Below are positions 11,613 through 46,543 of a stretch of DNA of 64,000 nucleotides, piece by piece (the first letter of the stretch is position 1; each line of letters opens with the position of its first letter). The notes beneath the pieces were generated by a model that was given only the letters and a program-made list of their open reading frames with translations, searched no databases and was not told the origin of the DNA. The stretch is from Desulfomonilia bacterium (GTDB taxonomy: Bacteria > Desulfobacterota > Desulfomonilia > UBA1062). The position numbers were made by a program, and so were the translations under genes. Location: contig CAXXDQ010000004.1 in the NCBI GenBank assembly GCA_963664325.2, positions 768,001-832,000 of the forward strand. Reading direction: 5' to 3'.

Positions 11613-11667
11613 CAGGCTGGTGAGGAGACCAGAAAAGTTACACACAATAGTAGTGTAATGTAGTCAA

Positions 11668-11704
11668 AGCAGCGGCCGGTGGCTTGAAGCCACCGGCCGC
11701 TGCT
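11668..11704 (+). terminator. Perfect 17-bp hairpin ending the lipoprotein array
   Basis: AGCAGCGGCCGGTGGCT-TGA-AGCCACCGGCCGCTGCT. Confidence 0.65.
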
Positions 11705-11746
11705 GCCATTCAGGGCTGTGAGAATAAAAATCCATGGGGGTGGATC

Positions 11747-12436: not shown

Positions 12437-12502
12437 AATATCCACCAGGGATAACCTGCAGCACACTCAACACTGTTCTCGATCATATCCCTATATCTTT
12501 TG

Positions 12503-25310: not shown

Positions 25311-25326
25311 CCTGAAGCAGCGGCCG

Positions 25327-26214: not shown

Positions 26215-26295
26215 TCGGATAAATTATTATGGAAACCATATGAGAATAAAGACGTGTTCACGCATTAAGTCAATCTTTATTAAGGGAGAAAGACG

Positions 26296-29200
26296 GTGAT
26301 TGAAAAGATAATAGGCCTCAGCGCCCGTAACCGTTTCTTCGTTATACTGATAACGGTATTTGCCGTCGTCTGGGGGGTCTGGGCCCTGAAGAGGACGCCG
26401 CTTGACGCAATACCGGACCTGAGCGACACCCAGGTGATTATTTATACAGAATGGCCGGGCCGGAGCCCTGATCTTGTTGAGAACCAGATAACCTATCCGA
26501 TATCGACCACTCTGCTTGCCGCCCCTAAGGTGCAGGCCGTAAGGGGATTCTCATTCCTCGGCAGCTCTTTCATCTATGTCATATTCGATGAAGGTACCGA
26601 CATATACTGGGCACGAAGCCGGATAATCGAATACATTGAGGCCGTTAAGAATAAGATACCCCAGGGGGTGAACCCGGTCCTCGGTCCTGACGCCACAAGC
26701 CTCGGATGGGGTTTTTCCTACGCCATTGTCGATGAAAAGGGCGGCCATGATCTTTCCCAGCTTCGCTCGATCGAGGATTACACCGTAAAACTGGCGCTTG
26801 AAAGCGTGCAGGGTGTTTCCCAGGTTGCGTCCGTCGGGGGGTTCGTCAAACAGTATCAGGTAAATATCGACCCGGTAAAACTCAGGTCCTATAATATCCC
26901 GCTCATGAAGGTTATAGAGGCGGTGAAAAAGAGCAATCTGGATGTTGAAGGCCGTGTGCTTGAGATGTCCGGCACCGAATACATGATACGGGGCCGGGGC
27001 TACATAAAGAACCTCTCGGATATCGAAAATATTGCCGTCTCCAATAACGGCAGGGGAACTCCTGTCATCCTTAAAGATGTCGCTTTAATTGAGTTGGGGC
27101 CGGAAATAAGGCGGGGGCTTGCAGACCTGAACGGCAGAGGCGAGGTCGCAGGCGGAATAGTTATAGTACGCTTCGGGGAGAACGTGCTCAATGTGATTGA
27201 GCGTGTAAAGGAAAAGATAAAAAACGATATAGGTCCATCCCTGCCGAAAGGGGTGAAAATCGTCGTCACCTATGACCGTTCCGATCTTATAAAGCGGAGC
27301 ATCGCAACACTCAGGGATGAGATAATCAAACTTGCCGTTGCCGTCAGCGTTGTCTGCCTTATATTCCTCTTCCACCTGCCAAGCGCCTTTGTCGTAATCC
27401 TCACGCTCCCTGTTGCCATAATCATGTCTTTTGTCTGCATGTACTATCTTGGCATTACATCGAACATCATGAGTCTGAGCGGTATCGCGATAGCCATAGG
27501 CGCAATGGTCGACGCCTCGATAATAATGGTGGAGAACGCCCACAAGAAACTGGAGGAATGGGAGGAAAACCGGTCAGGGACAAGATTTGACGCCATATTG
27601 GAGGCGGCAAAGGAAGTGGGGCCGTCCTTGTTCTTCTCGCTGCTTGTCATAACGGTCGGATTCCTTCCCGTTTTCACCCTCGAGGAACAGGCCGGAAGGC
27701 TTTTCAAGCCGCTTGCATTCACTAAGACCTTTGCCATGCTGTTTTCATCTCTGCTTGCCGTTACCCTTACCCCTGTGCTCATGACCATGCTTATCAGGGG
27801 CAGAGTCAGGCATGAGGACAGAAACCCCATAAGCATGTTCCTCAGGTGGATATACAGGCCTGTCGCGTCTCTGGCGCTTAAACATACCTGGGTTGTGATC
27901 GGGCTTTCAATAATCATTATGGCGGCTACGGTTTACCCGATAAAAAAACTGGGCAGCGAATTCATGCCTCCGCTCAATGAAGGCACGCTTTTCTACATGC
28001 CGGTGACCGTTCCGGCTGCCTCCATCAGCGAGGTTCAGAAACTTCTGAACCTCCAGGACCGGTTAATCATGCAGGTCCCGGAAGTGGAATCGGTATTCGG
28101 CAAGGCGGGCCGGGCGGAAACCGCAACCGACCCTGCGCCGCTTGAGATGTTCGAGACGGTTATCAATCTCAAACCCGAAGATAAATGGAGAAAGGGCGTA
28201 ACGACAGACGACATCAAGGATGAGCTTAATGACAGGCTGAGCATCCCGGGTGTGGCCAATTCCTTCACCATGCCGATAAAGGCCAGGATCGACATGCTGG
28301 CTACAGGCATCAGGACCCCGGTGGGCATAAAGGTAATGGGCCCTGACCTTGGTGTTATTGACAGGATCGGGCTTGAACTTGAAAATGCGGTTAAAAAGGT
28401 TCCCGGTATAAGGAGCGTCTATTCCGAGCGTGTCACGACGGGCTATTATATTGATTTTGAAATAAACAGGGATGCCGCCGCGCGATACGGCCTGAGCGTG
28501 GAGGATGTCCAGTCAGTGGTGGAAGCCGCAATAGGCGGCATGAACATCACCACAACGGTCGAGGGCAGGGAGCGCTATCCGGTTAACGTCCGCTATGCCA
28601 GGGAACTCAGAAACGATATCGGGAAAATGAAAAATATTGAGGTGCCTGTTCAGGCAGACGCTGCGGGAAACGGTATGGGCGGTTCCGGCATGGGGGCTCA
28701 GGCCGTTGGCGCTGCCGCAGGGCAGATCGCATGGATTCCGCTTTCAGAGCTTGCGGATGTAAGGATTGTCCGGGGCCCCACCATGATAAAAAGCGAAAAG
28801 GGTCTGCTCAATTCCTATGTTTATATTGACTTTTCGGGCAAGGACATCGGGGATTTCGTTAACGAGGCCAAGAAGGCTGCTTCAACGGTGAAAATCCCTT
28901 CCGGCTACCGGCTTGAGTGGAGCGGGGAATACGAATATCTCCTGAAGACGCAGGAAAGGCTCATGCTGGTCATCCCGCTTACTCTTTTCATCATATTCGT
29001 CCTTATCTACATGAACACCCGCTCTGTTACGAAAACGGCGATCGTGCTTCTTGCAGTGCCGTTTTCTCTGGTAGGCTCATTCTGGTTTCTTTATATCATG
29101 GGGTACAACCTGAGTATCGCGGTATGGGTGGGCATCATTGCGCTTGCGGGGCTTGATGCGGAGACGGGCGTGGTCATGCTTTTATACCTCAGCCTTGCCT

Positions 29201-29478
29201 ATGAAAAATATAGAACATCCAAACGCATGGAATCGACAGTTGATTTAAAGGCCTCGATAATGGAAGGCGCGGTCAAGCGCATACGCCCTAAAATAATGAC
29301 CGTAAGCGTCATCCTTGCAGGGCTTATCCCGATTATGTTCAGCCACGGGGCAGGCTCGGACATCATGAAGCGTATTGCAGCGCCAATGGTCGGAGGCGTC
29401 ATTACATCGACGCTGCTCGAGCTGCTTATCTATCCCAGTATATTTTTCATCTGGAAGAAAAAGGGGCTCAAAGATTAG
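26296..29478 (+). CDS. cusA: Heavy-metal RND efflux permease (CusA-like)
   Basis: LDAIPDLSDTQV, LGPDAT, GAMVDA, EFMPPLNEG; Met at CusA triad-equivalent motifs (FYMP, LEMFET, RIDML). Confidence 0.95.
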   Translation: MIEKIIGLSARNRFFVILITVFAVVWGVWALKRTPLDAIPDLSDTQVIIYTEWPGRSPDLVENQITYPISTTLLAAPKVQAVRGFSFLGSSFIYVIFDEGTDIYWARSRIIEYIEAVKNKIPQGVNPVLGPDATSLGWGFSYAIVDEKGGHDLSQLRSIEDYTVKLALESVQGVSQVASVGGFVKQYQVNIDPVKLRSYNIPLMKVIEAVKKSNLDVEGRVLEMSGTEYMIRGRGYIKNLSDIENIAVSNNGRGTPVILKDVALIELGPEIRRGLADLNGRGEVAGGIVIVRFGENVLNVIERVKEKIKNDIGPSLPKGVKIVVTYDRSDLIKRSIATLRDEIIKLAVAVSVVCLIFLFHLPSAFVVILTLPVAIIMSFVCMYYLGITSNIMSLSGIAIAIGAMVDASIIMVENAHKKLEEWEENRSGTRFDAILEAAKEVGPSLFFSLLVITVGFLPVFTLEEQAGRLFKPLAFTKTFAMLFSSLLAVTLTPVLMTMLIRGRVRHEDRNPISMFLRWIYRPVASLALKHTWVVIGLSIIIMAATVYPIKKLGSEFMPPLNEGTLFYMPVTVPAASISEVQKLLNLQDRLIMQVPEVESVFGKAGRAETATDPAPLEMFETVINLKPEDKWRKGVTTDDIKDELNDRLSIPGVANSFTMPIKARIDMLATGIRTPVGIKVMGPDLGVIDRIGLELENAVKKVPGIRSVYSERVTTGYYIDFEINRDAAARYGLSVEDVQSVVEAAIGGMNITTTVEGRERYPVNVRYARELRNDIGKMKNIEVPVQADAAGNGMGGSGMGAQAVGAAAGQIAWIPLSELADVRIVRGPTMIKSEKGLLNSYVYIDFSGKDIGDFVNEAKKAASTVKIPSGYRLEWSGEYEYLLKTQERLMLVIPLTLFIIFVLIYMNTRSVTKTAIVLLAVPFSLVGSFWFLYIMGYNLSIAVWVGIIALAGLDAETGVVMLLYLSLAYEKYRTSKRMESTVDLKASIMEGAVKRIRPKIMTVSVILAGLIPIMFSHGAGSDIMKRIAAPMVGGVITSTLLELLIYPSIFFIWKKKGLKD

Positions 29479-35289: not shown

Positions 35290-38200
35290 TCATTTTACCG
35301 CATTAATCTCAGCATCCTTCATGATCCCGTAATTCACCCCGTAACATATGGCGAAGGTAACTATGTTGTTTTCCTTCATGAAGTCCGAACTCCAGGGCAA
35401 GTCGGCTGCCGTAGCGCCCTCCTTCGGCAGGAAGAGGTAAATCGTGTCCGTTATCTGCTTAGGATAGTCTATGTCCTTGTATCTAATCATCTGATAATCC
35501 CATATCCATTCGTTCTTTTCCGACAGAGTCGCGTTTGTCGAGTTCGTGACATTAACAAAGCGCTCTTTGACGAACGGGAGCTTCAGCCTTACCTTTTTGC
35601 TTCTGCTCTCAATCGTTCTCCTGGCATCCGTTATAGCGAATCTGTCGGTGTCGCTTGTGGAAGTGTTGATCTTTATCACTTTGACATCATATTTATTGCC
35701 GGACAGCGCGTTCTGTCGCCAGAGTTCGCCCCTGTCATCCTTTACCCATTTTCCGATATCGTCGTTCGCGAAAAATGTAGGCAGGCCTTTTACGACCTCA
35801 TTCCAGCCCGGGTCAAGACCGCCGAAAACCGCATCAGGACTGTCCGGTTTGCTGATATCGTAGCACATATAGGAATATTTGTTCGTGTCCGCCTGAAGCA
35901 CGACAGGGAGCGCCGAATAGCTTAAGAAATCCAGCGGCCCCTTCTGCGACATCACCTTGAGCGGTTCTCCGGAAACATGATTCCTTGTTTCGTAAAGATA
36001 ATAGTTGATATAAGTAGGCGCGCCGATGACCCATGCGCTCATTTTGCCGTAAGACTCTATGGAAACCGTCTGCGAGGCGTACAGGTCTATCTGTTTTGTC
36101 TGGCTCTTGATCACACTGTTTGAGAACTCGTTCGATTTTGTAAAGCTCTTGTTTATGGTTTTCCATTCCTTGTTCGTGGTTGACGCCGTACCGAACGTTG
36201 TCGCGTAAATCATGCTGCTTGCATCGCTCGATGCAGTGGCTAGGGTGAACCTGCTCGCGCCCGTCGTTTTGTCGTCATACCTCGGCGGAACCCCGAAGAC
36301 GACTCCTACAGGCCTGAATCTGCCCAGGCTGAATGTCTTGTAATTTTTGTCCTCTTCCATCGATGAAATGAATTTCAGCCCCGAATCGGTCATCATTTTC
36401 CAGTCCGGACCGTGACCGTACCAGTATCTGTCCAGATAACGCAGCTCATCCACAAATCCCGCGTCGAATTTTTTGGCGGGCGTGAACCCGATGTTGTGGT
36501 ACATGAGCGAAGGCAGACGGGATATGTCGAATTTTTTCTTTACGCTTTCAATCGAGCCGCTGGTGAAATAAAAATTTTCCAGATTTTCGTCTTCGGCATA
36601 TAGAGGTATGAAAAAAATATCATGAGCAGGGGACATTTTATATTCATTGGAGGCGAAACCGGCAATAAAACCCAGCTTGCCGTCTATCGCCGCATGGCAG
36701 ACATCGCTCATCCATTTGTCATCGAAGTATCCTTTGGATGATATCCTGTCAGCCTGAACTTTATCCCTGCGTGCAAGCGCGCTGTTTTTCATCGTGTCAA
36801 GATTGATTACATAACAGTTCAGCGCCGCATACTCGTAGTCATATTTTTTCCGTCCCTCCTTTGTTTTCCTGTCAACAGGGTCTATATTCGAGCTCCTTAT
36901 GAATACAGCCGCACTGTTGGTATCCGGTATCCTTCTGACCCTGACATCATATATATGTCCGTTTACCGATATTTCACCGCCGGGGACGGCTGATGCTCCG
37001 CCGCCTGTTCGTGAATATTTCCAGAACCTGACCGACTTCCTGTCCTTTACCGACAGAACGTAAATGAAGTTTTCATCTACTACAGGACATATTTTAAGAT
37101 TTTCAGCCGGATCGCTGTCCAGAAAAGAAATACTTTTGAAACTCTTGAAATCATCGGTGCTGGAGTATTCCTTTAAAACGCATTTTCCGTTTCCGGTATT
37201 GTCCAGCACGAACATGGAATCATCATACTGGCATGTCATTTCCCCGAAGGGACGCTCGCTCAGCATTGTGAGTGTCTTGCATGCAGTTGGCCACCCGTTG
37301 TCGTCAAGACTGCACATATAAAGATACCTTCCTTCGCACTCATAGAAAAGGTACTGGCCGATTCTGCTTGCATTGTCCCCGCTGCCGATATCGATGGCAT
37401 CAGATCGGGCCTTTGCCGAACGAAGCGCTTCAGTCTCGGCCGCAGCCGCCCCGGCGGATTTCACGCTTACTTCAAGGGCTTTTTTGCCTTCCGTGTTGAT
37501 ATAAAACACCAGGTCATCTTTCTTTACCAGCGCATAGCCGTCTGAGAAGTCAGCCGCCTCATCGAACTGATGGGCGATCACATCGCCCCCTTTCGGGTCG
37601 ATATATCCCCATTTGCCGTTTTCTTTCACGGCAGCGAGCTTTTCACTGAACTGTTTTGCATCCTCATACTGGGGGTTGATCCTGTATCTGCCATTGTAAT
37701 CCACGAAGCCCCACTTGCTCTCAACCCTCACCGGGGCGAGGCCTTCGCTGAATTCACCGGCCTCGTCGAACTGTGTTTCAATGTATATCTCGCCTCTGGT
37801 ATCTATGAAGCCCCACTGGTTTTCAAGGTCTTTTACAGGCGCCAGACCCTCCTGGAATGACCCTGCGTCAAGCCATACCCTGTCCAGAACATACTTGTTC
37901 TTTCTGTTAATGAACCCCCATTTACCGACCCTTTTGGCAGGCGCAAGGCCCGAGTTGAATCCCTTGAGGTCTTCGTATGAATAGTCGATTATCAGCCTGC
38001 CTTTCTTGTCTATCATCCCCCACAGGTCACCCTTTCTCACTGGAGCCATCCCGCTGCTGAACGGCCTTGCCCCGTCGTACCTGGGATTTATGACATATAG
38101 TCCCTTTTTGTTGATGTAACCCCATTTCTTCTTGTCGACCCTTGCAGGTGCAAGGTCTACATCGAAGGAGCCTATTTCCTTGAATATGAACTTGATCACG

Positions 38201-38409
38201 ACCTGGCCAGCCGTGTTTATGAATCCCCACTGGCCGCCTGAGCATACACCCGCAAGCCCGCCGGCGAAGCTAAGCAGCTTTTCGGCCGTGCCCGCTGTTT
38301 CAGGCTGCACTACCGGTTCCGCCTTAGTCGGGGGACAGACAAATGCGATGAAAAGAATCAGACAGGCCAGAACTTTTATAAACGGCATTGAAGATGTGTT
38401 GTTTTTCAT
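35290..38409 (-). CDS. Secreted WG-repeat protein with a large unknown C-terminal region
   Basis: GGAGG RBS; signal peptide; 7 WG(F/Y/M)(I/V) repeats plus one degenerate (WG_beta_rep-like); Ala-rich linker; Ser/Thr-rich C-terminal domain. Confidence 0.85.
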   Translation of the reverse strand: MKNNTSSMPFIKVLACLILFIAFVCPPTKAEPVVQPETAGTAEKLLSFAGGLAGVCSGGQWGFINTAGQVVIKFIFKEIGSFDVDLAPARVDKKKWGYINKKGLYVINPRYDGARPFSSGMAPVRKGDLWGMIDKKGRLIIDYSYEDLKGFNSGLAPAKRVGKWGFINRKNKYVLDRVWLDAGSFQEGLAPVKDLENQWGFIDTRGEIYIETQFDEAGEFSEGLAPVRVESKWGFVDYNGRYRINPQYEDAKQFSEKLAAVKENGKWGYIDPKGGDVIAHQFDEAADFSDGYALVKKDDLVFYINTEGKKALEVSVKSAGAAAAETEALRSAKARSDAIDIGSGDNASRIGQYLFYECEGRYLYMCSLDDNGWPTACKTLTMLSERPFGEMTCQYDDSMFVLDNTGNGKCVLKEYSSTDDFKSFKSISFLDSDPAENLKICPVVDENFIYVLSVKDRKSVRFWKYSRTGGGASAVPGGEISVNGHIYDVRVRRIPDTNSAAVFIRSSNIDPVDRKTKEGRKKYDYEYAALNCYVINLDTMKNSALARRDKVQADRISSKGYFDDKWMSDVCHAAIDGKLGFIAGFASNEYKMSPAHDIFFIPLYAEDENLENFYFTSGSIESVKKKFDISRLPSLMYHNIGFTPAKKFDAGFVDELRYLDRYWYGHGPDWKMMTDSGLKFISSMEEDKNYKTFSLGRFRPVGVVFGVPPRYDDKTTGASRFTLATASSDASSMIYATTFGTASTTNKEWKTINKSFTKSNEFSNSVIKSQTKQIDLYASQTVSIESYGKMSAWVIGAPTYINYYLYETRNHVSGEPLKVMSQKGPLDFLSYSALPVVLQADTNKYSYMCYDISKPDSPDAVFGGLDPGWNEVVKGLPTFFANDDIGKWVKDDRGELWRQNALSGNKYDVKVIKINTSTSDTDRFAITDARRTIESRSKKVRLKLPFVKERFVNVTNSTNATLSEKNEWIWDYQMIRYKDIDYPKQITDTIYLFLPKEGATAADLPWSSDFMKENNIVTFAICYGVNYGIMKDAEINAVK

Positions 38410-38447
38410 CTTATCCTCCTGAAATCAGAACATGCAGCTGTTACATC

Positions 38448-38474
38448 ATATCGGCTGCAGGGCAGGGCAACTGA
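38448..38474 (-). promoter_or_regulatory. Putative sigma28 (FliA-type) promoter
   Basis: Minus strand TCAG-N15-GCCGATAT, ~40 nt upstream of the start at 38409. Confidence 0.4.
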
Positions 38475-38507
38475 AGAAATCCTGTGGTTTGCTTTTAAAA
38501 GAGGAAG

Positions 38508-38547
38508 GGTCTCAACATTTGAGCATATCCTGCCGGATGTTGAGACC
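38508..38547 (-). terminator. Stem-loop after the RHS gene
   Basis: GGTCTCAACAT ... ATGTTGAGACC (11 bp), followed by a pyrimidine run on the minus strand. Confidence 0.45.
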
Positions 38548-38568
38548 TGATCCCTGATGTGTATGGTT

Positions 38569-41500
38569 TCAATCGTTTTCGTATCTTATTTTTTGTCTCG
38601 GGTTGCTTGCTTTGTATTCTCTGTCCAGTTGATCAAGGTAGTCACTCTGTTCCTGCGCATTCATTTCATTGTAAGGCTTATGGTTAATGACCTGCTGTTT
38701 GTTAAGGTTCTGATTTCGAAATACCGGCTGCTCTTGAGGAACTTTCTGTTTTTTATTAAACTTAAAGTAAGTCTCTTTTTTTGACTTATTCTGTAAGGAG
38801 GGTTGCTGATATTTTGTTCTGAGATTTCTCTGTATATTGCTTTCTCTGGGTATTGTTCTTTCTTCCGGTATTATATTTAATGGCTGGTTCTGCTGATATT
38901 TAATCCGTATTTTTCTCTGTATTCCGCTTTCGATGGGCCTTTCTTCCGGTATTATCCTTAATGACTGGTTTCTGAACTCAAGACGTCTTGCGTCTCTTTG
39001 CGCATTGAGCCTGGTGATGGCCGCCTCTTGACGTAACGCCGCCTGACGAAGTTTATAGGCTTTATATGCTTTGTAACCGGATCCTGCCGCGGCGCCCAAT
39101 CCTGTCGCAAGAGATACTCCACCGAATACACGAGACGATGTCCTGAGGTTTTTTACGGTTTGATATCCTGAATCGGGATTCTTTTCTTCTATCTTGTTCG
39201 CCGCTATGCTGAGGCCGCCCCCGATGGCCCCGGATGCAAGTGTTACTATCGCCAGCACCGCAACCACTCCTATCTGGCCGTCGGGATCGACTATCTCTAC
39301 AGGGTTGCCGTCGGCATATGCGTATCTGTTCGTCAGGTCATAGGAGTCCCTGGAGGTGAACCTCATAAGCTCCGGCGAGTAGGACCTTGCCTTGAGATAA
39401 TACATGCCAGATTCCTCATCCTCATAATAGCCGGAGAACCTGTAGGGATTGCCGGATATGGAGAAGGATCCTCCCTCATTCGCCTTTCGCTGTGATTGAG
39501 GGGCTCTCCCCTGTTCTTTTCCGTATGCCGTGTAACTGTATTCCTCAACCGGCGCTCTCGCCTTTTCATCCGTGAAGCCTATGACGTCCTTCCTGTCGGT
39601 TATCAGCCATTGATGTTTCCCGTCAACAACCCTTAGAAGGCTGGCGAGCGTCGAAACCCTGCTGCCATTCGAATCCTCTTCGTTCATTATACGTTTGTCG
39701 AAGTCATAATAGTACCTGATCGAATATTTGGTATTGTTGTCCTTCTTGATGCTCCTCAGGCCTTCGGCGTCATACGAATAGCTTACGTCGGAGCCGGATG
39801 GACCTGAATACCTGACAAGCTGGCCGAATGAGTTGTATTCGAATTTTTTCACCTCTTTGCCGTTGATAAGGATTTTTTTTAGGGCGCCGTTTTCGTCATA
39901 GGCATAGGATGTGATCGATCCGTTGGGGCCATTCGAGCTTTTGAGCCTGTTGTCGGCGTCATATTCAAAAGAAGTCTTTCCGTGAGCGGAAGAACCGCTC
40001 ACCGTCCTTGATATGATGTTACCCCTGATGTCGTAGACGTATGAGGTCTTTTCAAGGGGCGAACCCGCGAGGCTTGATGTCTCATCGGAAATGAGCTGAT
40101 TGTTGTCGTTGTAGATGAACGTCCTTGTGCTGTCCTCATCCTTTTCGGATGATTTCCTTGTGAGCTTCGCGGTGCGTCCCATTTCGTCGTACTCGTAGGA
40201 AAGCGAGCCGAGCAGGACGCCGCCGGAACCGGTTGCCGTTATGCCCTTGAGCATCAGCGGAGACGGCGCAGACGAATTTGCGATCTGATTATAATAGTCA
40301 TAGGTTATTTCAACGCTTATGGCGAATGCCCCGTCTGTGCCGCTGCTGAAGGACGCCTGCCTGAGCGTCGTGCCCGGGCCGAGAAGACCTCCCGCTTCAG
40401 GCGGAAAATAGCTGTAGTCTACTCTTCCGTATCTGTTTTCAATTCTCACGATGTTTTCAGGGATAAGATTGTCGTATGTAACCAGCGTTTTTGTCCCATT
40501 GATGTCTGTAATGCTTTTAAGCCTGTCGAAATCGTCGTATTCTGCAAGCCTTGTCTTGCCGTTCATATATGTCACCTTTTCAAGCAGGCCTCGGCTGTTA
40601 TAGCCGTATTCGATCTTGTCTGTCAGCTTCCTGCCGATATGAAGTTCCCTTGACCGGATCAGGCCTTCTGCAGGCGACCCGGCAGGGTAATATGTGAAGG
40701 TGGCGGCCATATCCCCTGATTCTACCGAAAGAAGCCTGTCCATGACGTCGTATTTATATTCGGTCTTCTTTCTGGTGAAGTCCGTCATTAAGGTCATGTT
40801 TGAGCTTTTGTCATAAGTGAAATGCATGGACTGCAAGAGGCCGTTGGTCACCTTGACGATATTTCCTGCGTTGTCGTATTCCTTCACCTCGCTGCCGAAG
40901 CCCATCATCGGGCCGCCCACTCCGGGTGAAAGTTTTTTATATGCTATATCCGAGCTGTTCACATATCCGAATGCGTTGAACTCCGCTTTAACTGCGTTCA
41001 TGCCGCCGTCGGAGGTCTTTACATTGGATGATATCTCGTTTTCATCAAGGTCATATTCTGATGTTTTCGATATAACCTCTCTGCCGGGGGCGTTTATGTC
41101 AGGCGCCATGAGAAGTTTAGATGAAATCTCCTGCCCCTTGCCGTTATAGAAGAATTCCCTTACTGGGTGGAGCGCCCCGCCCGGCCTCCCGCCAAGGCAG
41201 TCGGCTGTCTTAAGCACATTACCTCTGTCGTCGTACTGTGTCCTGGAGACTTTGACGCCTTTAAATGAAACCGTCTCGGTCAGGTTCTCATCATCATACT
41301 CGTAGATTGTCTCATTTACGTAAGAGCTTCCGACATCCGGAACATATGGGGTTTCGACAGTCCTTGTCTCTCTTCCCTGCCAGTCGCTGTAAAAATGCTC
41401 TGTCTTCCTTGAAAACCTGTCAGTTTCCGTGGCTATCTCGCCGAGCTCGTTGTAGGTACATTCGTAAAGCGTTCTTTCCGACCCGCCATGTCCGTTGTTG

Positions 41501-43491
41501 TCCGTCCTTTTCACGAGCCTGCCGAAGCCGTCGAGATATTCGGTCTCGACATATCCCGACGATGAGGTCCTGAGAGTTTTTTTCGGATCGCTCTCATCGA
41601 TTGTCTCCCAGCTTTTGTCGGGGTATTTTTTTGTGACCTTAAGGCCGTTGTTCTCGTATTTGTAAGTCGTGCTTCGACCCATGGCGTCTGTTTCCTTCAT
41701 GACGAAGCCGTTCCTTAAATCAACACTCACCGAGGTTTCATGCCCCAGGCCGTCCCAGGTCGTTGTGGTCAGCTCGTGCCCTCCCAGAAGAGGATGTGTA
41801 TAAGTGCTCTTTTCAGTTATTGTTGAGGGTTCGGCGCCTGCCTGCTTGTTTGTTTTCACCTGCGTTATCCTGCCGTAGATGTCCATGGCGGTATTAACGA
41901 TGACCTTTTCACCGCCCCTTTGCGTGACGGTCCCGGCTATGTATTTGCCGGATGCATCGAGCGTGTTTTCCGATGAGATATCGCTGTCCTTTTCCGCGCT
42001 GTCTGCGACCCTGGATGTATCTTCAAGCCCGTATCTGGAGAAGTAGGAGGTCGTGATCTCGGCCGTGGCCGGACCAGTCCTCTCGGTGCTCGAAGAGACC
42101 AGCCCTTCGGGATTGTATGTCAGCGTCTCGTTGTTTATTTTTCTTGAGCCCGTCTGTACGAGGGTTTCCCTGGTCCTGCTGTAGTTCCCGTCGAGCTGGG
42201 AAAGCGACGGGAAAAGGCCCTGGGCGTCCTGTCCTGCAAATTTTGGGGTTGTGGTCTGTTTCAGACTGCCGCCCTGTCTGATTTCCGTCCTTACCGGCAG
42301 GCTGAGGTTGTTGAAAGTAATACAGGTCATCTGATCGCCGCCGTTTTCAGGTTTACGCCTGCTGGTGACCAATGTCGAGAAGCTGAAGGAATTGTCGCCG
42401 CTCGTAAACAGTGTGTTGCTTCCGAAGGGGTAATTGGGATAGCCAGTATAAAACCTGCCTATGCCTGCCCGGTAATCATATGAGGTGGTTTTTTTGGCCG
42501 ACCCTGCATGGCCCGAATCTTCAATGACCCTGCTTACCGCCGGGAATGACTTCCTGTTGTCCCCCCTGGCCAGAATGTAGTCGATGGCGTTGTCATTGTA
42601 TTCATACCTTATGCTTCCCCCCGAAGGGTACGCCACTTCGCGGATTCTTCCGTTTTCAGAAAGTCTTATCACAACCGTCCTGCCCTCGGGGCTGACGATC
42701 GTCACATTGCTTGACAGGCTCGGCGTGATATTGAAGCTGCAGGATGCCTTGCGTTCGTCAGGCATGGTTATTACGGCTTCCTTCACAACCTTGTCGCCCG
42801 TATACGAAATGCGGATGTCCTGTCCGTAACTGTCGTTTATCCTTACCAGTCTTGAATCTTCGATGAAGGTGTCTTTTTCGAAATAATAGAGAATCCGGTT
42901 GCCGAAGCGGTCGTCTATGCATATCAGCCTGCCGTATTTGTCGAAATACCTGCTGCTCCCGTCGAGCATAGTGAGCCTGTATGAGTATGCTCTTTTGTCA
43001 TAAGTCAGCTCCCCTGGAAGCCTTTCCATCCTGAACATACCGCTTTTTACATACCTGAGCCCGCTCGGCCAGGAGGAGTCGAGGGCAAGGCTTGCGCTGC
43101 CGGTCAGATTGAGAACGTCGTTTTTCGTATCCACATAGTCGAGGTCCCATTTCCAGCCCGGAGGAAAACCGTAAATCGTCGACCTGTCGCCCTGCGCCAG
43201 ATCGTGCGCGCTCAAGCCCAGGCTCAGGTCCATCTCATCTGCAATACCCGGCAGGTTTATGCATTCTATGTTTACCCCGGGCTGGCCCGTCTGGGGATTC
43301 ACCTCTATGCCGAAACCGCTGACGGCGTTAGCGGCAAAGGAATCCGAGGGTTTGACGTTCTTCGCTGAAACTTCAAGATTCGGCTTCATTTCTGAGTTTG
43401 CATCATCAGACGCCGATGCCTCGCCGCAAAAAGCGAAGACAAATAAACACGCCGTCAGGATACGGTAAGCTCTTCTATTTATCATTTTCAT
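38569..43491 (-). CDS. Sec-signal RHS/YD-repeat protein with C-terminal cargo
   Basis: Signal peptide (ASA); many YD repeats; RHS core PYRFSGYYEDEESGMYYLKARSYSP...RF...NRYAYADGNPVEIVDPDG. Confidence 0.92.
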   Translation of the reverse strand: MKMINRRAYRILTACLFVFAFCGEASASDDANSEMKPNLEVSAKNVKPSDSFAANAVSGFGIEVNPQTGQPGVNIECINLPGIADEMDLSLGLSAHDLAQGDRSTIYGFPPGWKWDLDYVDTKNDVLNLTGSASLALDSSWPSGLRYVKSGMFRMERLPGELTYDKRAYSYRLTMLDGSSRYFDKYGRLICIDDRFGNRILYYFEKDTFIEDSRLVRINDSYGQDIRISYTGDKVVKEAVITMPDERKASCSFNITPSLSSNVTIVSPEGRTVVIRLSENGRIREVAYPSGGSIRYEYNDNAIDYILARGDNRKSFPAVSRVIEDSGHAGSAKKTTSYDYRAGIGRFYTGYPNYPFGSNTLFTSGDNSFSFSTLVTSRRKPENGGDQMTCITFNNLSLPVRTEIRQGGSLKQTTTPKFAGQDAQGLFPSLSQLDGNYSRTRETLVQTGSRKINNETLTYNPEGLVSSSTERTGPATAEITTSYFSRYGLEDTSRVADSAEKDSDISSENTLDASGKYIAGTVTQRGGEKVIVNTAMDIYGRITQVKTNKQAGAEPSTITEKSTYTHPLLGGHELTTTTWDGLGHETSVSVDLRNGFVMKETDAMGRSTTYKYENNGLKVTKKYPDKSWETIDESDPKKTLRTSSSGYVETEYLDGFGRLVKRTDNNGHGGSERTLYECTYNELGEIATETDRFSRKTEHFYSDWQGRETRTVETPYVPDVGSSYVNETIYEYDDENLTETVSFKGVKVSRTQYDDRGNVLKTADCLGGRPGGALHPVREFFYNGKGQEISSKLLMAPDINAPGREVISKTSEYDLDENEISSNVKTSDGGMNAVKAEFNAFGYVNSSDIAYKKLSPGVGGPMMGFGSEVKEYDNAGNIVKVTNGLLQSMHFTYDKSSNMTLMTDFTRKKTEYKYDVMDRLLSVESGDMAATFTYYPAGSPAEGLIRSRELHIGRKLTDKIEYGYNSRGLLEKVTYMNGKTRLAEYDDFDRLKSITDINGTKTLVTYDNLIPENIVRIENRYGRVDYSYFPPEAGGLLGPGTTLRQASFSSGTDGAFAISVEITYDYYNQIANSSAPSPLMLKGITATGSGGVLLGSLSYEYDEMGRTAKLTRKSSEKDEDSTRTFIYNDNNQLISDETSSLAGSPLEKTSYVYDIRGNIISRTVSGSSAHGKTSFEYDADNRLKSSNGPNGSITSYAYDENGALKKILINGKEVKKFEYNSFGQLVRYSGPSGSDVSYSYDAEGLRSIKKDNNTKYSIRYYYDFDKRIMNEEDSNGSRVSTLASLLRVVDGKHQWLITDRKDVIGFTDEKARAPVEEYSYTAYGKEQGRAPQSQRKANEGGSFSISGNPYRFSGYYEDEESGMYYLKARSYSPELMRFTSRDSYDLTNRYAYADGNPVEIVDPDGQIGVVAVLAIVTLASGAIGGGLSIAANKIEEKNPDSGYQTVKNLRTSSRVFGGVSLATGLGAAAGSGYKAYKAYKLRQAALRQEAAITRLNAQRDARRLEFRNQSLRIIPEERPIESGIQRKIRIKYQQNQPLNIIPEERTIPRESNIQRNLRTKYQQPSLQNKSKKETYFKFNKKQKVPQEQPVFRNQNLNKQQVINHKPYNEMNAQEQSDYLDQLDREYKASNPRQKIRYEND

Positions 43492-43564
43492 ATATTATTC
43501 TCCGCTTCACGGTTTTATTCTCACCACTCACAACCCTTCTCTCGTAATTATCTTTTTTCACTTC

Positions 43565-46543
43565 TCACCATGGATCGTTCAAAACGAACCATTTTTTATT
43601 TTTATCTTTAACAACGGAACCATAGAAGTCGCCTCCTTCAACATGGCCATACTCCCAGTCTCCGTCGTGTCTCCAGTAGCCGCTGTGAACATTATCCCAG
43701 TCGTTGCACCTTACTTCCCAGGAGCGGGCGTATCTGTCATGGCCCTTACTGGTTGCGAAAAACACAAACTCTCCTTCCGTCCCGTAAGGTTTAAGGCTGC
43801 TTTTTTCTTTGTAAGTCCTTTCGCTTCTGATCTGTAACCGATTGAGGGCGGGTCCGATTTTTTTCGCCTCATACTTGTTATGAAAGAGCTCATCTTTTGA
43901 AACAAGTGAGTATCCCTTCATTTCCCAGCAGACCTTGCTGCCTTTCCAGAAAATCTGGTCGTCGCCGGTTGCATAAAAAACCCGTTTATCTCTTCCTTCC
44001 GATGATCTTGGCGCTGCAATTATCTCTGTGGCGGCATATTCCCTTCTTTTATAATCGGGCCCGTCTTCGGTCTTCCCCCATGTTTTAAAAATTACAGGGA
44101 CTTGCGTTTCATTATCGAGGCCTATCAGGAACCTCTTTCCATCTGCATTTCCATCGCGGGCGCCTGCCTCTTTGACTTTGGCGCAAGGCTGGCTTTCGTA
44201 TATGGAACACCACTCAATGTTGAGCATTTCCTCGGAACCTCCGCCGCTTAGCCTCTTCACAAGCTTTTTCCTGTTGTCTGTGAATAAAGGAGAGCGGGCG
44301 TATCTCCCATATATGTCGAATATAAATGCATATATGTCCCTGCCGCATGTGTAGTAAAGCGATGATGTCCTGTCGGAGACCTTGAATCGTTTGATTTTGC
44401 CTCCCATGTCCGGCGGCCTCATGTAAAATCCGCTCCTGAACGTGCTGAAATTGAACCTTGCGAACAGGTTCCTTTCGTTCATGCCCTCGGGCAGCAGGGG
44501 CACAATGAAATAATTATCCGGGGATGACGCCCTTTCGAACACGAAATCGAAATCTCCTTTCGAGGGGTCGGAAAGAAACGGTTCACCCTCCAGATACAGC
44601 GTCCTGAGCTTTTCTGAATTCATCTCAGCTTCACGCAAATCGCAAACATTATTGACCTCTATGGGCAGTCTGGGGTTCAGGGTGAAATCGTTGTCCTTGA
44701 CTATCGTTCCGCTGTCATCGAGCAGCTGAACGCTGATGGATCTGTCAGGCTTGTTGTAGGGCATCGCGTATACATAATAAGTCCGGTATTTCATCGATGA
44801 GCCCTGTTCATACTCGTTTGGGATTCCGTAGTGCGGCTGTGCGGACTTCATCTTGTTCCCCCATTCGGAAGGCATCAACGCCAGTTTGTTGTTGTCAGAG
44901 GGATCGGCGCCGACAGTTTTGTCCTTGTTCAGGGCGCCTGTCTGCTCCTTGCTGTAGAAGACCAGCCGGTCGTAGATTTCATCGGGGGCTTCGATGCCGT
45001 TCTTTGTGATCCTGATGTCGACAGGGTAGGCGCATACCCCGTTGAAATAGGTCTCTCCTGACGGCGCCCTGAAACTGATTGTATAATCCAGATCGGCCGG
45101 CGCCGGTATGATGGAAGGCAGGGCTTTTGCAGCAGGTTCTGCAAATATGACATCTTTATTGCTGTTGAAGTCACGGGCGAGCTGCATTACCGTTACATGG
45201 TGTTTCCCGTAAGGTTTCGGGCCTATCCAGTAGAAAGCGATGTCACCGGGATTCAAAGCTGCATTCTTAAGTCCGTCGTCGCTGTATTTCACCCCGTTCA
45301 GCGGATATGCATAAACCCTGTACCTGTCGGGATCCGGAGAATTTGGTTTTTCGGCTACATCGATTTCATATCTGAAGCCGTTCAAGCCGCTTTTGAAAAG
45401 CTGTTCCTGATTCAGGCCGGCGCCTTTTATCTTTATCAGATATACCGCATCGTTTTTGTGCTTCACAGATTCCATGCTGTTTGCCGCCGAGACATAATAT
45501 ATTTCGAAATCCAGCGTAGAAGCCTTTAATGAGTTTCCGGCAACCGGGGCGGTTGCCGGAGCAGACGCTACCGGAGCGCTTCCTGTCTTCATGGTTACAT
45601 CGAGCGCCTTTTCCCCTTCATCGTCTATGTAATATGCAAGCCCGTCTTTAGAAACAAGGGCAAGCCCGTCGGAGAAGTCGGCGGCTTCGTCATATATGTT
45701 CGGTATGGCGTCATGGCCCCTAGGGTCTACATAGCCCCACTTACCGTTTTCTTTCACCGCTGCAAGCCCTTCCGAGAATTGTCTTGCCTGGTCGAACTGG
45801 GGATTGATCCTGTATTTCCCCTTGTAGCTGACGAATCCCCATTTGCTTTCCACCTTTACGGGGGCAAGCCTCTCGCTGAATTCCATTGCGTCGTCGAACT
45901 GCGTTTCGATGTAGATATTTCCTTTTGTATCGATATAACCCCACTGGTTCTCGAGGTCTTTTACAGGCGCCAGGCCTTCCCGGAATTCACCGGCTTCAAG
46001 CCACTGCCTTTTAATCGCGAACCTGCCGTTCTTGTCTATGAACCCCCATTTGCCGACCCTCTTTGCGGGGGCGAGCCCGTAGTAGAAGCCCTTGAGGTCT
46101 TCGTATGCATAGTCATGCACAAGCCTTCCTTTTGTGTCGATGAATCCCCAGAGGTTCCCTTTCTTCACAGGCGCCAGCCCGCTGGAAAAAGGCCTTGCAG
46201 CGTCGAATCTCGGGTTGATGACGAAGAGCCCCTTCTTGTTTATATATCCCCACTTCTGTTTATCGACGCGAGCCGGAGCAAGGTCAGCATTGAACGAGCT
46301 CACTTCCTTGAATATGAATTTTATAGCCACCAGGCCCGCAGTGTTTATGAATCCCCACTGGCCGCCTGAGCATACGCCCGCAAGCCCGCCTGAAAAACTC
46401 AGGATTCCCTGCACTGAACCGCCTGCCTTGTTTTCAGATACGGCACCTGCCGCATTAAGAGGTTCCGCAAGCACAAAAACAGACATAAGGATGAGAAAAA
46501 GGGATATATAACTTGAAAAAATCCTGCCGGAGTTTTTTTTCAT
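43565..46543 (-). CDS. Secreted WG-repeat protein (paralog) with an unrelated C-terminal region
   Basis: GGAGG RBS; signal peptide; WG-repeat block highly similar to that of 35290..38409; APATAP linker. Confidence 0.85.
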   Translation of the reverse strand: MKKNSGRIFSSYISLFLILMSVFVLAEPLNAAGAVSENKAGGSVQGILSFSGGLAGVCSGGQWGFINTAGLVAIKFIFKEVSSFNADLAPARVDKQKWGYINKKGLFVINPRFDAARPFSSGLAPVKKGNLWGFIDTKGRLVHDYAYEDLKGFYYGLAPAKRVGKWGFIDKNGRFAIKRQWLEAGEFREGLAPVKDLENQWGYIDTKGNIYIETQFDDAMEFSERLAPVKVESKWGFVSYKGKYRINPQFDQARQFSEGLAAVKENGKWGYVDPRGHDAIPNIYDEAADFSDGLALVSKDGLAYYIDDEGEKALDVTMKTGSAPVASAPATAPVAGNSLKASTLDFEIYYVSAANSMESVKHKNDAVYLIKIKGAGLNQEQLFKSGLNGFRYEIDVAEKPNSPDPDRYRVYAYPLNGVKYSDDGLKNAALNPGDIAFYWIGPKPYGKHHVTVMQLARDFNSNKDVIFAEPAAKALPSIIPAPADLDYTISFRAPSGETYFNGVCAYPVDIRITKNGIEAPDEIYDRLVFYSKEQTGALNKDKTVGADPSDNNKLALMPSEWGNKMKSAQPHYGIPNEYEQGSSMKYRTYYVYAMPYNKPDRSISVQLLDDSGTIVKDNDFTLNPRLPIEVNNVCDLREAEMNSEKLRTLYLEGEPFLSDPSKGDFDFVFERASSPDNYFIVPLLPEGMNERNLFARFNFSTFRSGFYMRPPDMGGKIKRFKVSDRTSSLYYTCGRDIYAFIFDIYGRYARSPLFTDNRKKLVKRLSGGGSEEMLNIEWCSIYESQPCAKVKEAGARDGNADGKRFLIGLDNETQVPVIFKTWGKTEDGPDYKRREYAATEIIAAPRSSEGRDKRVFYATGDDQIFWKGSKVCWEMKGYSLVSKDELFHNKYEAKKIGPALNRLQIRSERTYKEKSSLKPYGTEGEFVFFATSKGHDRYARSWEVRCNDWDNVHSGYWRHDGDWEYGHVEGGDFYGSVVKDKNKKWFVLNDPW

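What the first reader, a model, noticed from the sequence alone, without database searches (positions are those of the whole stretch)
35290..46543. WG-repeat / RHS / WG-repeat trio: candidate undescribed Sec-exported toxin-delivery system
Seen: three co-oriented large genes, all with Sec-type signal peptides. A 1640-aa RHS protein is flanked by two proteins sharing one WG-repeat N-terminus but having unrelated C-termini. No PAAR/VgrG, TcA or immunity ORF is present (only ~160 bp follows the RHS stop). Known: RHS shells encapsulate a cargo released at the PxxxxDPxG motif and usually need a T6SS spike, a TcA pore or a wall anchor. The N-terminal VNPQTG...GFPPGWKW resembles the start of TcB/SpvB-like shells. 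Inference: the WG proteins act as targeting or translocation partners, and lack of immunity hints at a non-kin or eukaryotic target.
Basis: partly seen in the sequence, partly recalled or inferred. Interest (0 to 1): 0.82.

Follow-up and report, generated by a model that had tools for sequence, protein, structure and literature searches.

The report
Exported RHS cage with partner proteins
A bacterium encodes a signal-peptide-bearing RHS "cage" protein whose enclosed tail is a pair of membrane-seeking helices, next to two secreted WG-repeat proteins of unknown fold, one of which stays beside the cage gene even in a very distant bacterium.

Summary
Three co-oriented minus-strand genes encode WG-A (992 aa), an RHS protein (1640 aa) and WG-B (1039 aa). 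The two WG modules are 68% identical, their C-domains are unrelated, and only 159 bp with a strong hairpin follow the RHS stop.

The RHS belongs to a small family with a conserved N-domain, an intact self-cleavage site (R1369, D1382, D1402; predicted cut Q1406|I1407) and a hydrophobic Gly-rich helical hairpin directly after the cut. The closest solved match across the cut site is mosquito SGS1, which stores predicted membrane helices inside its shell. Tse5 is the bacterial precedent.

The tail is orthologous among four orthologues, not swapped, and no immunity gene follows it.

The conserved partner is the A-type C-domain, not the WG repeat. A lipoprotein with that domain and no WG repeats sits 16 bp upstream of a 44%-identical RHS in a high-GC genome.

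WG-B is optional: it is not found in that genome and is intact without the RHS in a sister species.

Both C-domains lack Pfam, PDB or confident fold assignments.

Verdict: a new variant of the known Sec-exported RHS toxin class, with a new accessory family. Binding, secretion and toxicity are untested.

The parts
43565..46543 (-). WG-A gene (992 aa): signal-peptide-like leader, 7 WG repeats, then the A-type C-terminal domain
   Evidence: ORF. Pfam WG_beta_rep E 1.1e-72, 7 stretches.
46451..46543 (-). WG-A leader, residues ~1-31 (basic, then hydrophobic, then LNA|A)
   Evidence: Read from the sequence. Hydropathy peak 2.35. No predictor was run.
45584..46426 (-). WG-A repeat module (residues ~40-320)
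   Evidence: It is 68% identical to the WG-B module.
43568..45526 (-). A-type C-terminal domain (residues 340-992), an all-beta family without a Pfam model; the part that stays next to the RHS in the distant genome
   Evidence: 5 proteins in the word-indexed search. 36 of 1.84 billion representatives at E<=1e-3. No Pfam or PDB match. AF2 pLDDT 45.1. Only residues 8-146 resemble an FN3/Ig/C2 sandwich, best Z 7.9.
38569..43491 (-). RHS gene (1640 aa)
43411..43491 (-). RHS leader, residues 1-27 (MKMINRRAYR, hydrophobic stretch, ASA|S)
   Evidence: Read from the sequence. Orthologues also start with hydrophobic leaders.
42232..43359 (-). Conserved family-specific N-domain of the RHS (residues 45-420)
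   Evidence: 48-75% identical among 4 orthologues. Matched at E ~1e-41 to 1e-44 in leaderless RHS genes of four other genomes. No SpvB or DUF6531 hit.
39274..39534 (-). Rhs-associated core (residues 1320-1406) with the aspartyl self-cleavage site: R1369, D1382, D1402; predicted cut Q1406|I1407
   Evidence: TIGR03696. Residue-level alignments to SGS1, Tse5 and other solved Rhs cores. Positions. Catalytic roles taken from PMC9935623 and PMC10684867.
39199..39273 (-). Cargo helix 1 (residues 1407-1431), strongly hydrophobic
   Evidence: Hydropathy 2.21 over 19 residues. Aligns with the first predicted membrane helix of SGS1. 72/36/36% identical in the three orthologues.
39073..39129 (-). Cargo helix 2 (residues 1455-1473), Gly/Ala-rich
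   Evidence: Sequence. Conservation 74/32/37%.
38572..39072 (-). Polar, basic, Q/N-rich tail of the cargo (residues 1474-1640), with two copies of a ~25-residue IIPEER...KYQQ unit
   Evidence: In the last 160 residues (1481-1640): K+R 33, D+E 19, Q+N 38. Only 32/19/13% identical in orthologues.
38493..38555 (-). Hairpin plus U-run just after the RHS stop, terminator- or attenuator-like
   Evidence: dG -25.2 kcal/mol, z -3.84, 0 of 200 shuffles fold as well. The consensus scan missed it, probably because its loop is longer than the 3-8 nt allowed.
35290..38409 (-). WG-B gene (1039 aa): leader, 7 WG repeats, then the B-type C-terminal domain
36400..37392 (-). First third of the B-type C-domain (residues ~340-670), probably a beta-propeller
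   Evidence: Low-confidence AF2 model (pLDDT 39.8 overall, ~55-74 in this part). All top fold matches are propellers: best 3hrp_A Z 11.3, rmsd 3.9, 211 aligned; 331 chains at Z>=8.
35293..36399 (-). Rest of the B-type C-domain (residues ~671-1039), fold unknown, Ser/Thr-rich middle, conserved LPWSSD...N motif near the end
   Evidence: 5 proteins in 5.8 billion. No Pfam, PDB or Atlas hit.

Best explanation
Shown by sequence:
- The middle gene encodes a Sec-exported RHS cocoon.
- Its aspartyl self-cleavage site is intact.
- Its ~235-residue tail is a hydrophobic, glycine-rich helical hairpin followed by a basic, disordered stretch.

Inferred:
1. By analogy with Tse5 and SGS1, the hairpin is kept shielded inside the cocoon after cleavage. 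It is later released into a lipid membrane, where it perturbs that membrane as a pore or ion leak.
2. The upstream gene product (A-type C-terminal domain, here carried on a WG-repeat module) is a secreted accessory protein. It holds, exports or aims the cocoon through the cocoon's conserved N-domain or shell. This is comparable in logic to the MafA lipoprotein that is always encoded upstream of MafB toxins.
3. WG-B shares the WG module, so it probably shares whatever that module binds. It is a lineage-specific add-on that can work without the RHS.
4. A and the RHS are probably one transcript. The hairpin after the RHS stop lets WG-B be expressed separately or by read-through.
For: RHS identity and cleavage site:
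- RHS repeats and Rhs_assc_core are present.
- In the alignments, R1369, D1382 and D1402 sit under the corresponding residues of SGS1 and Tse5. The papers assign catalysis to one Arg plus two Asp in SGS1, with cleavage at 2733|2734, and to D1141/D1164 in Tse5 (passages read).

Cargo:
- The best PDB match to residues 1320-1420 is SGS1 (E 1.5e-10). The alignment runs through DPDGQ into the first hydrophobic helix.
- SGS1 stores ~230 residues of predicted membrane helices inside its shell. Tse5 delivers an encapsulated pore-forming fragment to membranes.
- Helix 1 has a hydropathy of 2.21.
- Leaderless relatives with the same N-domain in four other genomes carry 236-282-residue Gly/Ala-rich tails with strongly hydrophobic segments (19-residue hydropathy 2.0-2.6 in the first 60 residues) at the same place. 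A hydrophobic tail is therefore a family trait that does not depend on Sec export.
- 31 of 102 RHS homologues that have the motif carry a hydrophobic 19-mer within 60 residues after it, and 10 of those 31 also have a hydrophobic N-terminus.

Partner A:
- A sits directly upstream in 3 of 4 species of the genus.
- In the distant genome G428, A and the RHS are 16 bp apart and the RHS is 44% identical over 1541 residues.
- The A-domain was not found in 400 other genomes of the window's phylum or in 150 others of G428's order. The pair is therefore patchy and travels together.
- The cluster sits in different flanks in G000 and in G001/G002.
- The Maf analogy comes from Zhang et al. 2012.

Transcription: hairpin after the RHS stop.
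Against: - No experiment or confident model shows that A binds the RHS.
- Leaderless relatives of the RHS in four genomes have no A- or B-type gene within about 7-14 kb, so the family does not need A.
- The tail is orthologous rather than polymorphic (72/36/36% identity in helix 1), and no immunity gene follows it in any of the 4 loci. Both points are unusual for an interbacterial toxin.
- A 25-residue helix of this hydrophobicity should act as a stop-transfer signal in SecYEG. It could trap the protein in the producer's inner membrane (inference from translocon biology).
- No route across the outer membrane is evident. T2SS GspL was not found and there is no PAAR, although two secretins and a T6SS sheath gene exist elsewhere in the genome.
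- The tail has no sequence similarity to Tse5-CT or any other solved chain, and it lacks the Wx[ST]IP motif of Tox-WTIP (read).
Confidence: 0.5

Rival explanations
1. The RHS is an inner-membrane-anchored envelope protein, not a delivered toxin. During Sec export, helix 1 stops transfer. The cage then sits in the periplasm tethered by the helix, and the basic tail stays in the cytoplasm. In effect this is a bacterial, inverted teneurin-like receptor or scaffold. The WG proteins would be periplasmic or surface ligands of the cage.
For: - Helix 1 has a hydropathy of 2.21 over 19 residues, directly after the core.
- The tail is net basic (K+R 33 against D+E 19 in its last 160 residues), which fits the positive-inside rule.
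- The tail architecture is conserved, not polymorphic.
- No immunity gene is present.
- No outer-membrane export route was identified.
Against: - The catalytic R/D/D of the self-cleavage site are all kept, so the shell would be cut from its anchor.
- The cut lies only about 5 residues before the helix. The core normally points into the shell (SGS1, Tse5).
- Leaderless relatives, which must fold in the cytoplasm, have hydrophobic tails at the same position.
- 10 of 31 other RHS homologues with hydrophobic tails also have hydrophobic N-termini, so this combination is common in toxin-type RHS proteins.
Confidence: 0.2
2. Neighbourhood without partnership. WG-A and WG-B are independent secreted binding proteins (adhesins or glycan binders). 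An RHS toxin gene has lodged between two recombining paralogues, and no physical complex exists.
For: - WG-B is an intact gene without the RHS in G003.
- Stand-alone homologues of both C-domains without WG repeats exist (P0131, P0134).
- About 20 distant A-domain homologues share only the first ~400 positions and have unknown contexts.
- Relatives of the RHS lack A and B.
- Synteny within one genus is largely inherited and counts as one observation.
Against: - An A-domain gene lies 16 bp upstream of the orthologous RHS in a genome with 69% G+C against the window's ~50%.
- Both families are very rare: the A-domain was found in 0 of 550 other genomes sampled.
- Chance adjacency arising twice is therefore unlikely.
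Confidence: 0.2
3. One reading: both WG proteins are translocation or targeting subunits of a three-part, TcA-like delivery machine for the RHS cargo.
For: - The trio is kept in 3 species.
- The B-domain probably starts with a beta-propeller. The A-domain probably starts with a beta-sandwich.
- Propellers and Ig-like sugar-binding modules decorate the SGS1 and Tc cocoons.
Against: - B was not found in the distant genome that keeps A plus the RHS.
- B survives without the RHS in G003.
- No TcA/VRP1 or SpvB signal was found.
- A hairpin separates the RHS from B.
- The fold assignments rest on models with pLDDT 40-45.
Confidence: 0.1

Closest known systems
Tse5 of Pseudomonas aeruginosa (Rhs cocoon with an encapsulated pore-forming C-terminal fragment; PDB 8cp6; PMC10684867, abstract and passages read)
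   Same: - RHS shell.
- Aspartyl self-cleavage with two Asp. The core aligns with it at E 5.6e-7.
- Hydrophobic cargo that works in membranes rather than as an enzyme.
   Different: - Tse5 has no signal peptide, is T6SS-delivered, has a DUF6531 N-plug, and has a cognate immunity gene, tsi5.
- The window's RHS has a Sec leader, no PAAR/VgrG nearby, no DUF6531 hit and no immunity ORF.
- Its tail shows no sequence similarity to Tse5-CT.
Mosquito SGS1/SGS4 (Rhs/YD shell with about 230 residues of predicted membrane helices stored inside; PDB 8fjp, 9on3; PMC9935623, abstract and passages read)
   Same: - Best solved match across the cleavage site (E 1.5e-10), with the alignment continuing into the first hydrophobic helix.
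- R + D + D catalytic residues are kept.
- Tail of about 235 residues.
- No enzymatic toxin domain follows directly.
   Different: - SGS1 is a 3364-residue eukaryotic protein.
- It has two propellers, a CBM, a lectin domain and a wedge domain built into the same chain, six predicted helices, and a Tox-SGS end.
- Here the RHS chain is bare, has two helices plus a polar tail, and any receptor-like modules are in separate genes.
Sec-dependent ('T2SS') RHS polymorphic toxins and Tox-WTIP (two membrane-spanning helices on RHS proteins), as classified by Zhang et al. 2012 (PMC3482391, tables and passages read)
   Same: Signal peptide, then RHS repeats, then a C-terminal module. A two-helix pore-forming tip on RHS proteins is already listed there.
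   Different: - No RxxR or Wx[ST]IP motif in the tail (read).
- The tip is orthologous, not polymorphic.
- A conserved upstream accessory gene is present.
MafB toxins with the upstream MafA lipoprotein of Neisseria (as described by Zhang et al. 2012, passage read)
   Same: A signal peptide is followed by a lineage-restricted conserved N-domain on the toxin. A secreted or lipoprotein partner is always encoded just upstream (A is a lipoprotein in the distant genome).
   Different: There is no sequence relation. MafB has no RHS shell. The anchoring role of MafA is itself a prediction in that paper.
Tc toxin BC subunits (TcdB2-TccC3; PDB 4o9x, 6h6e)
   Same: RHS cocoon, aspartyl protease core (E 3e-4) and an encapsulated unfolded cargo.
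   Different: - No SpvB domain.
- No propeller detected in the same chain.
- No TcA/VRP1 gene found (the control did not ring, so this is inconclusive).
- The window's RHS has a signal peptide.

Membership tests
RHS/YD cocoon proteins with Rhs-associated core | RHS/YD repeats | tested here: met
   PF05593 E 7.7e-40. TIGR01643 75.7 bits against a cut-off of 15.8.
RHS/YD cocoon proteins with Rhs-associated core | Rhs_assc_core ending in PxxxxDPxG, with catalytic Arg and two Asp | tested here: met
   TIGR03696 at residues 1320-1406, 66.9 bits. PVEIVDPDG at 1397. R1369, D1382 and D1402 align with SGS1 and Tse5. Cleavage itself has not been assayed.
Polymorphic RHS toxin systems | C-terminal tip that varies between close relatives while the shell stays conserved | tested here: not met
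   Identity falls gradually. Core 82/69/57%, helix 1 72/36/36%, helix 2 74/32/37%. The same architecture is seen in all 4 orthologues.
Polymorphic RHS toxin systems | Cognate immunity gene directly downstream | tested here: not met
   In the window, a 159-bp gap with no plausible ORF. In G001/G002 the next gene of 200 aa or more is a Fib_succ_major lipoprotein; in G428 it is a C11 peptidase lipoprotein. ORFs under 200 aa were not scanned in those three loci, and an unrecognised immunity role for these neighbours cannot be excluded.
T6SS Rhs effectors | PAAR, VgrG or Eag chaperone in the protein or next to it, and no Sec leader | tested here: not met
   No PAAR family match in the genome. Neighbours are unrelated. 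The N-terminus is a Sec-type leader. A T6SS sheath gene exists on another contig.
Tc toxin BC (TcB/TcC) | N-terminal SpvB domain | tested here: not met
   No PF03534 hit at E<=1 on residues 1-500, and none at E<=10 in the genome (the control rang in 2 genomes).
Tc toxin BC (TcB/TcC) | TcA partner (VRP1 family) in the genome | tested here: inconclusive
   No PF03538 hit, but the control search rang nowhere.
SGS1-like RHS proteins with stored membrane helices | Predicted membrane helices directly after the aspartyl cleavage site | tested here: met
   The alignment to SGS1 residues 2674-2743 runs through the cut. Hydropathy 2.21.
SGS1-like RHS proteins with stored membrane helices | Receptor domains (propellers, CBM, lectin) inserted in the same chain, and a Tox-SGS end | tested here: not met
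   No domain other than RHS was found in the 1640 residues. The tail ends in a polar, low-complexity stretch.
Tox-WTIP | Two membrane helices with RxxR and Wx[ST]IP motifs | tested here: not met
   Two helices are present, but the 235-residue tail contains no Trp at all (sequence printed).
WG_beta_rep proteins (PF14903) | Tandem ~35-residue WG repeats | tested here: met
   7 stretches in each of WG-A and WG-B. No function is attached to this family: 3 papers mention the name, none in the title or abstract (listing only).

The most novel reading that the evidence does not exclude
The cluster is a bacterial 'SGS1 in pieces'. A Sec-exported RHS cocoon stores a membrane-inserting helical hairpin, and its receptor modules are supplied in trans by separate secreted proteins that dock on the cocoon. 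These would be the WG repeats plus a beta-sandwich-led A-domain, the WG repeats plus a propeller-led B-domain, and in sister species a Fib_succ_major lipoprotein. Together they would form a contact-dependent or vesicle-borne delivery device that needs no T6SS spike and no TcA pore. The two co-oriented WG modules would also act as recombination arms that excise or reinstall the A-RHS cassette, as the chimeric gene in G003 suggests.
Probability: 0.15. Interest if true: 0.8.

Novelty: new variant of a known kind. Interest (0 to 1): 0.5.

Why it matters
How RHS cocoons that are exported by the Sec pathway in double-membrane bacteria reach a target is an open question. The studied cases use a T6SS spike, a TcA pore or a Gram-positive wall anchor.

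This locus offers a compact test case. It has a Sec-leader RHS with a simple two-helix cargo and a dedicated upstream partner from a protein family with no Pfam model, no solved relative and only about 36 detectable relatives among 1.84 billion representative proteins.

If A proves to be the export, retention or targeting factor, it would define a new accessory class for RHS toxins. It would also give a bacterial counterpart for the still unexplained membrane-helix cargo of mosquito SGS1.

If instead the helix anchors the cage in the producer's own membrane, this would be a non-toxin use of the RHS fold in bacteria.

Tried and rejected
Fold and family searches that gave nothing usable:
- AlphaFold2 on both C-domains with 5-row alignments gave poor models: pLDDT 39.8 for B and 45.1 for A. 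I use only the first domain of each, and only as a lead.
- PDB sequence and profile searches gave nothing for A, B or the RHS tail.
- Pfam at E<=1 gave nothing above cut-off on either C-domain, the RHS N-domain or the tail.
- Of 25 distant A-domain homologues scanned, the only hits were WG repeats in P0140, a sub-threshold B_lectin in P0157, and Ig-type hits in P0171, which is probably a chance hit of the search.
- Protein Atlas was unreachable. The one answered query, on the B-domain, gave no usable hit. The A-domain did not complete.

Binding and expression:
- Complex prediction on RHS residues 40-380 with the A-domain returned 'no answer' (score 0.00). The partner's own fold was uncertain, so this is not evidence either way.
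- No RNA holder was listed for the locus, so co-expression could not be examined and read laying was not used.

Context searches:
- Metagenome scans with both C-domain alignments found no relative.
The genomic contexts of P0131, P0135, P0140 and the distant A-domain homologues could therefore not be seen.
- The earlier-findings index returned nothing in any of 4 look-ups.

Families looked for in the window's genome:
- SpvB: none at E<=10.
- VRP1/TcA: none, but the control was silent.
- PAAR: none.
- T2SS GspL: none.
- Fib_succ_major: none.

Other points:
- The consensus terminator scan did not list the post-RHS hairpin. Folding it did show it.
- Rejected: T6SS delivery of this RHS, because of the Sec leader and the absence of PAAR or VgrG.
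- Rejected: classing the tail as Tox-WTIP, because the motif is absent.
Full report
**What is there.** On the minus strand lie three ORFs: 43565-46543 (WG-A, 992 aa), 38569-43491 (RHS, 1640 aa) and 35290-38409 (WG-B, 1039 aa).
- Pfam finds seven WG_beta_rep units in each flanking protein and RHS repeats in the middle one. NCBIfam places the Rhs-associated core at residues 1320-1406.
- The two WG modules are 68% identical over 320 residues. The remaining 660-700 residues do not align.
- All 14 WG-repeat matches in the 4.3-Mb genome fall in these two genes.
- Each protein begins with a basic-then-hydrophobic leader ending in a small-x-small site. No predictor was available, so this is read from the sequence.
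- The A-to-RHS gap is 73 bp. The RHS-to-B gap is 159 bp with no plausible ORF. It contains an 11-bp-stem hairpin followed by a U-run (dG -25.2 kcal/mol, z -3.84).
- The flanking genes are an RND efflux operon, an acyl-CoA dehydrogenase, a glycosidase, sugar kinases, an aldolase and a LacI regulator.

**The RHS protein.** A word-indexed search of 5.8 billion proteins found only two close relatives (64% and 53% identity). All the others were at or below 27%.
- The region after the leader (residues 45-420) is highly conserved (48-75% identity).
- Against solved structures, the whole protein matches bacterial Rhs cocoons only in the last third.
- Searching residues 1320-1420 alone, the best hit is mosquito SGS1 (E 1.5e-10), ahead of bacterial Rhs proteins, Tse5 and TcdB2-TccC3. 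The alignment continues past DPDGQ into the following hydrophobic helix.
- The SGS1 paper (PMC9935623, abstract and passages) assigns catalysis to one Arg and two Asp, with cleavage at 2733|2734. The aligned residues here are R1369, D1382 and D1402, with a predicted cut at Q1406|I1407. The Tse5 paper gives the same two-Asp logic (D1141, D1164).

**The cargo.** After the cut come four parts:
1. A 25-residue helix with hydropathy 2.21.
2. A 23-residue polar loop.
3. A Gly/Ala-rich helix.
4. About 165 residues of basic, Q/N-rich sequence, including a twice-repeated ~25-residue unit.

- The tail has no match in Pfam or the PDB, and no Trp, so it is not Tox-WTIP as defined.
- Among the four orthologues, identity declines smoothly from core (82/69/57%) to helix 1 (72/36/36%) and helix 2 (74/32/37%), and drops in the tail (32/19/13%). 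The tip is therefore orthologous, not a swapped polymorphic cassette.
- A hydrophobic start to the tail is common. It is seen in 31 of 102 motif-bearing RHS homologues (20 of 122 had no motif). Ten of those 31 also have a hydrophobic N-terminus.

**A wider family.** Searching the N-domain alignment found the following.
- In 400 other genomes of G428's phylum, four further genomes carry RHS genes of 1604-1715 codons matching positions ~40-432 at E ~1e-41 to 1e-44. A fifth has only a weak partial match (E 6.7e-6).
- In 400 other genomes of the window's own phylum there were only weak matches, E >= 5e-8.
- The four strong relatives start without a leader. Two of the genomes carry them as tandem pairs. 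Their tails of 236-282 residues are Gly/Ala-rich with strongly hydrophobic segments right after PVMxSDPxG.
- In three of them the genes sit between RPE65-like, PLD-like and D-Ala-D-Ala-ligase genes.
- No A- or B-type gene lies within about 7-14 kb.
- A hydrophobic helical cargo is therefore a trait of the family. The Sec leader and the A partner mark one subclade.

**Conservation of the neighbours.**
- In 40 relatives, strong RHS matches occur only in two other species of the genus. Both keep the order A / RHS / B, with an extra Fib_succ_major lipoprotein between RHS and B. That family was not found in the window's genome.
- Their flanks (a C45/AAT peptidase and others) differ from the window's.
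- The one genome-collection scan with the A-domain found those two loci plus a third in a 69% G+C genome, G428. There, a 734-residue lipoprotein carries the A-domain (38-40% identity) and no WG repeats. It ends 16 bp before an RHS that is 44% identical over 1541 residues, with the same N-domain and the same two-helix tail. The next gene is a C11-peptidase lipoprotein.
- The A-domain was not found in 400 other genomes of the window's phylum or in 150 others of G428's order.
- The B-domain is present in G001, G002 and G003 but was not found in G428.

**A natural deletion.** G003, the fourth species of the genus, has no RHS and no A-domain in the locus fetched.
- At the place syntenic with G002 it has a single intact 1031-codon gene.
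- The first ~120 nt of that gene are closer to the A gene, and the rest is closer to the B gene.
- The simplest reading is recombination between the two co-oriented WG modules, which removed the A-domain, the RHS and the lipoprotein.
- This shows that B can persist without the RHS.

**The two C-domains.**
- The B-domain has five members in the indexed search, one of them a 784-residue stand-alone form.
- The A-domain has five members there. An exhaustive profile search of 1.84 billion representatives found 36 at E<=1e-3. About twenty of these share only the first ~400 positions.
- Of 25 A-domain relatives scanned, none has an above-cut-off Pfam domain other than WG repeats, apart from the probable chance hit P0171.
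- About 20 of the 34 listed A-domain relatives begin with a hydrophobic leader, read by eye.
- The AlphaFold2 models are poor.
- The first ~140 residues of A resemble an FN3/Ig/C2 sandwich (best Z 7.9, which is weak).
- The first ~330 residues of B resemble a beta-propeller (best Z 11.3; 331 chains at Z>=8, and every listed match is a propeller).

**Secretion context.** The genome has a T6SS sheath gene on another contig, two secretins, no PAAR match and no GspL match. A second, unrelated RHS-like locus with PKD and fn3 domains lies on contig 7.

**Interpretation.** I favour, at 0.5, a Sec-exported cocoon that cuts and stores a membrane-inserting hairpin, as in Tse5 and SGS1. Its secreted accessory protein would be defined by the A-domain, in an arrangement like the MafA/MafB logic described by Zhang et al.. 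WG-B would be an optional paralogous add-on.
- The main rival (0.2) is that helix 1 stops Sec transfer and anchors the cage in the producer's inner membrane. The basic tail and the lack of immunity fit that view. The intact cleavage site and the leaderless relatives with the same kind of tail argue against it.
- A second rival (0.2) is adjacency without partnership.
- Nothing here shows binding, secretion, cleavage or toxicity.

**Novelty.**
- Signal-peptide RHS toxins and two-helix RHS tips are already catalogued, and stored membrane helices are structurally documented.
- The new elements are the conserved, non-polymorphic cargo without an immunity gene, the dedicated A-domain family, and the WG-module arms.
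- A full-text search for 'WG repeat' with 'RHS' returned one paper, on an unrelated topic by its title and abstract. A search for WG_beta_rep returned three papers, with the term in no title or abstract.
- I rate it a new variant of a known kind.

Noticed in passing
L022 (G003:C62) 9373-12465, minus strand: A sister species has one intact chimeric gene (A-like first ~120 nt, B-like for the rest) where the others have A / RHS / lipoprotein / B. This looks like a deletion by recombination between the two WG modules.
   Followed up: yes
L039, L040, L041, L042 (G512, G557, G791, G828): These loci carry leaderless RHS genes with the same N-domain and 236-282-residue Gly/Ala-rich hydrophobic tails. 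Two of the genomes have them as tandem pairs. In three genomes they sit between RPE65-like, PLD-like and D-Ala-D-Ala-ligase genes. Their export route is unknown.
   Followed up: partly
L009 15616-16725 and L011 9129-10130: A Fib_succ_major lipoprotein (333-369 aa) lies between the RHS and WG-B in two sister species. It is missing from the window and from the rest of the window's genome.
   Followed up: partly
window 38572-39072 (RHS residues ~1510-1560): The polar tail holds two copies of a ~25-residue unit (IIPEER...KYQQ). Orthologues keep the composition of the tail but not its sequence.
   Followed up: no
L016 (G000 contig 7, 43-51 kb), outside the window: This is a second RHS-like locus in the same genome. 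The RHS repeats are split over two adjacent ORFs (1015 and 547 aa) carrying PKD, fn3 and a weak DUF6531 match. A 1187-aa PKD protein follows them.
   Followed up: partly
G000 contig 7, about 928 kb, outside the window: A T6SS sheath gene (VipB/TssC, E 7e-140) is present, although no PAAR-family match was found in the genome.
   Followed up: no
window 22894-29478: This looks like an RND efflux operon on the plus strand. HlyD-type fusion protein and AcrB-type pump were confirmed; the ORF before them was not scanned. It is consistent with a double-membrane cell.
   Followed up: partly
L015 17055-19652: In the distant genome the gene after the RHS is a lipoprotein with a clostripain-type (C11) peptidase domain. 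It could be a processing enzyme for the system, or it could be unrelated.
   Followed up: no
records behind L013-L015 and P0130: Public labels of the related assemblies disagree: Bacteriovoracaceae for two genus members, Desulfomonilia for the third, and Anaeromyxobacter for the distant one. I therefore drew no taxonomic conclusion from them.
   Followed up: no
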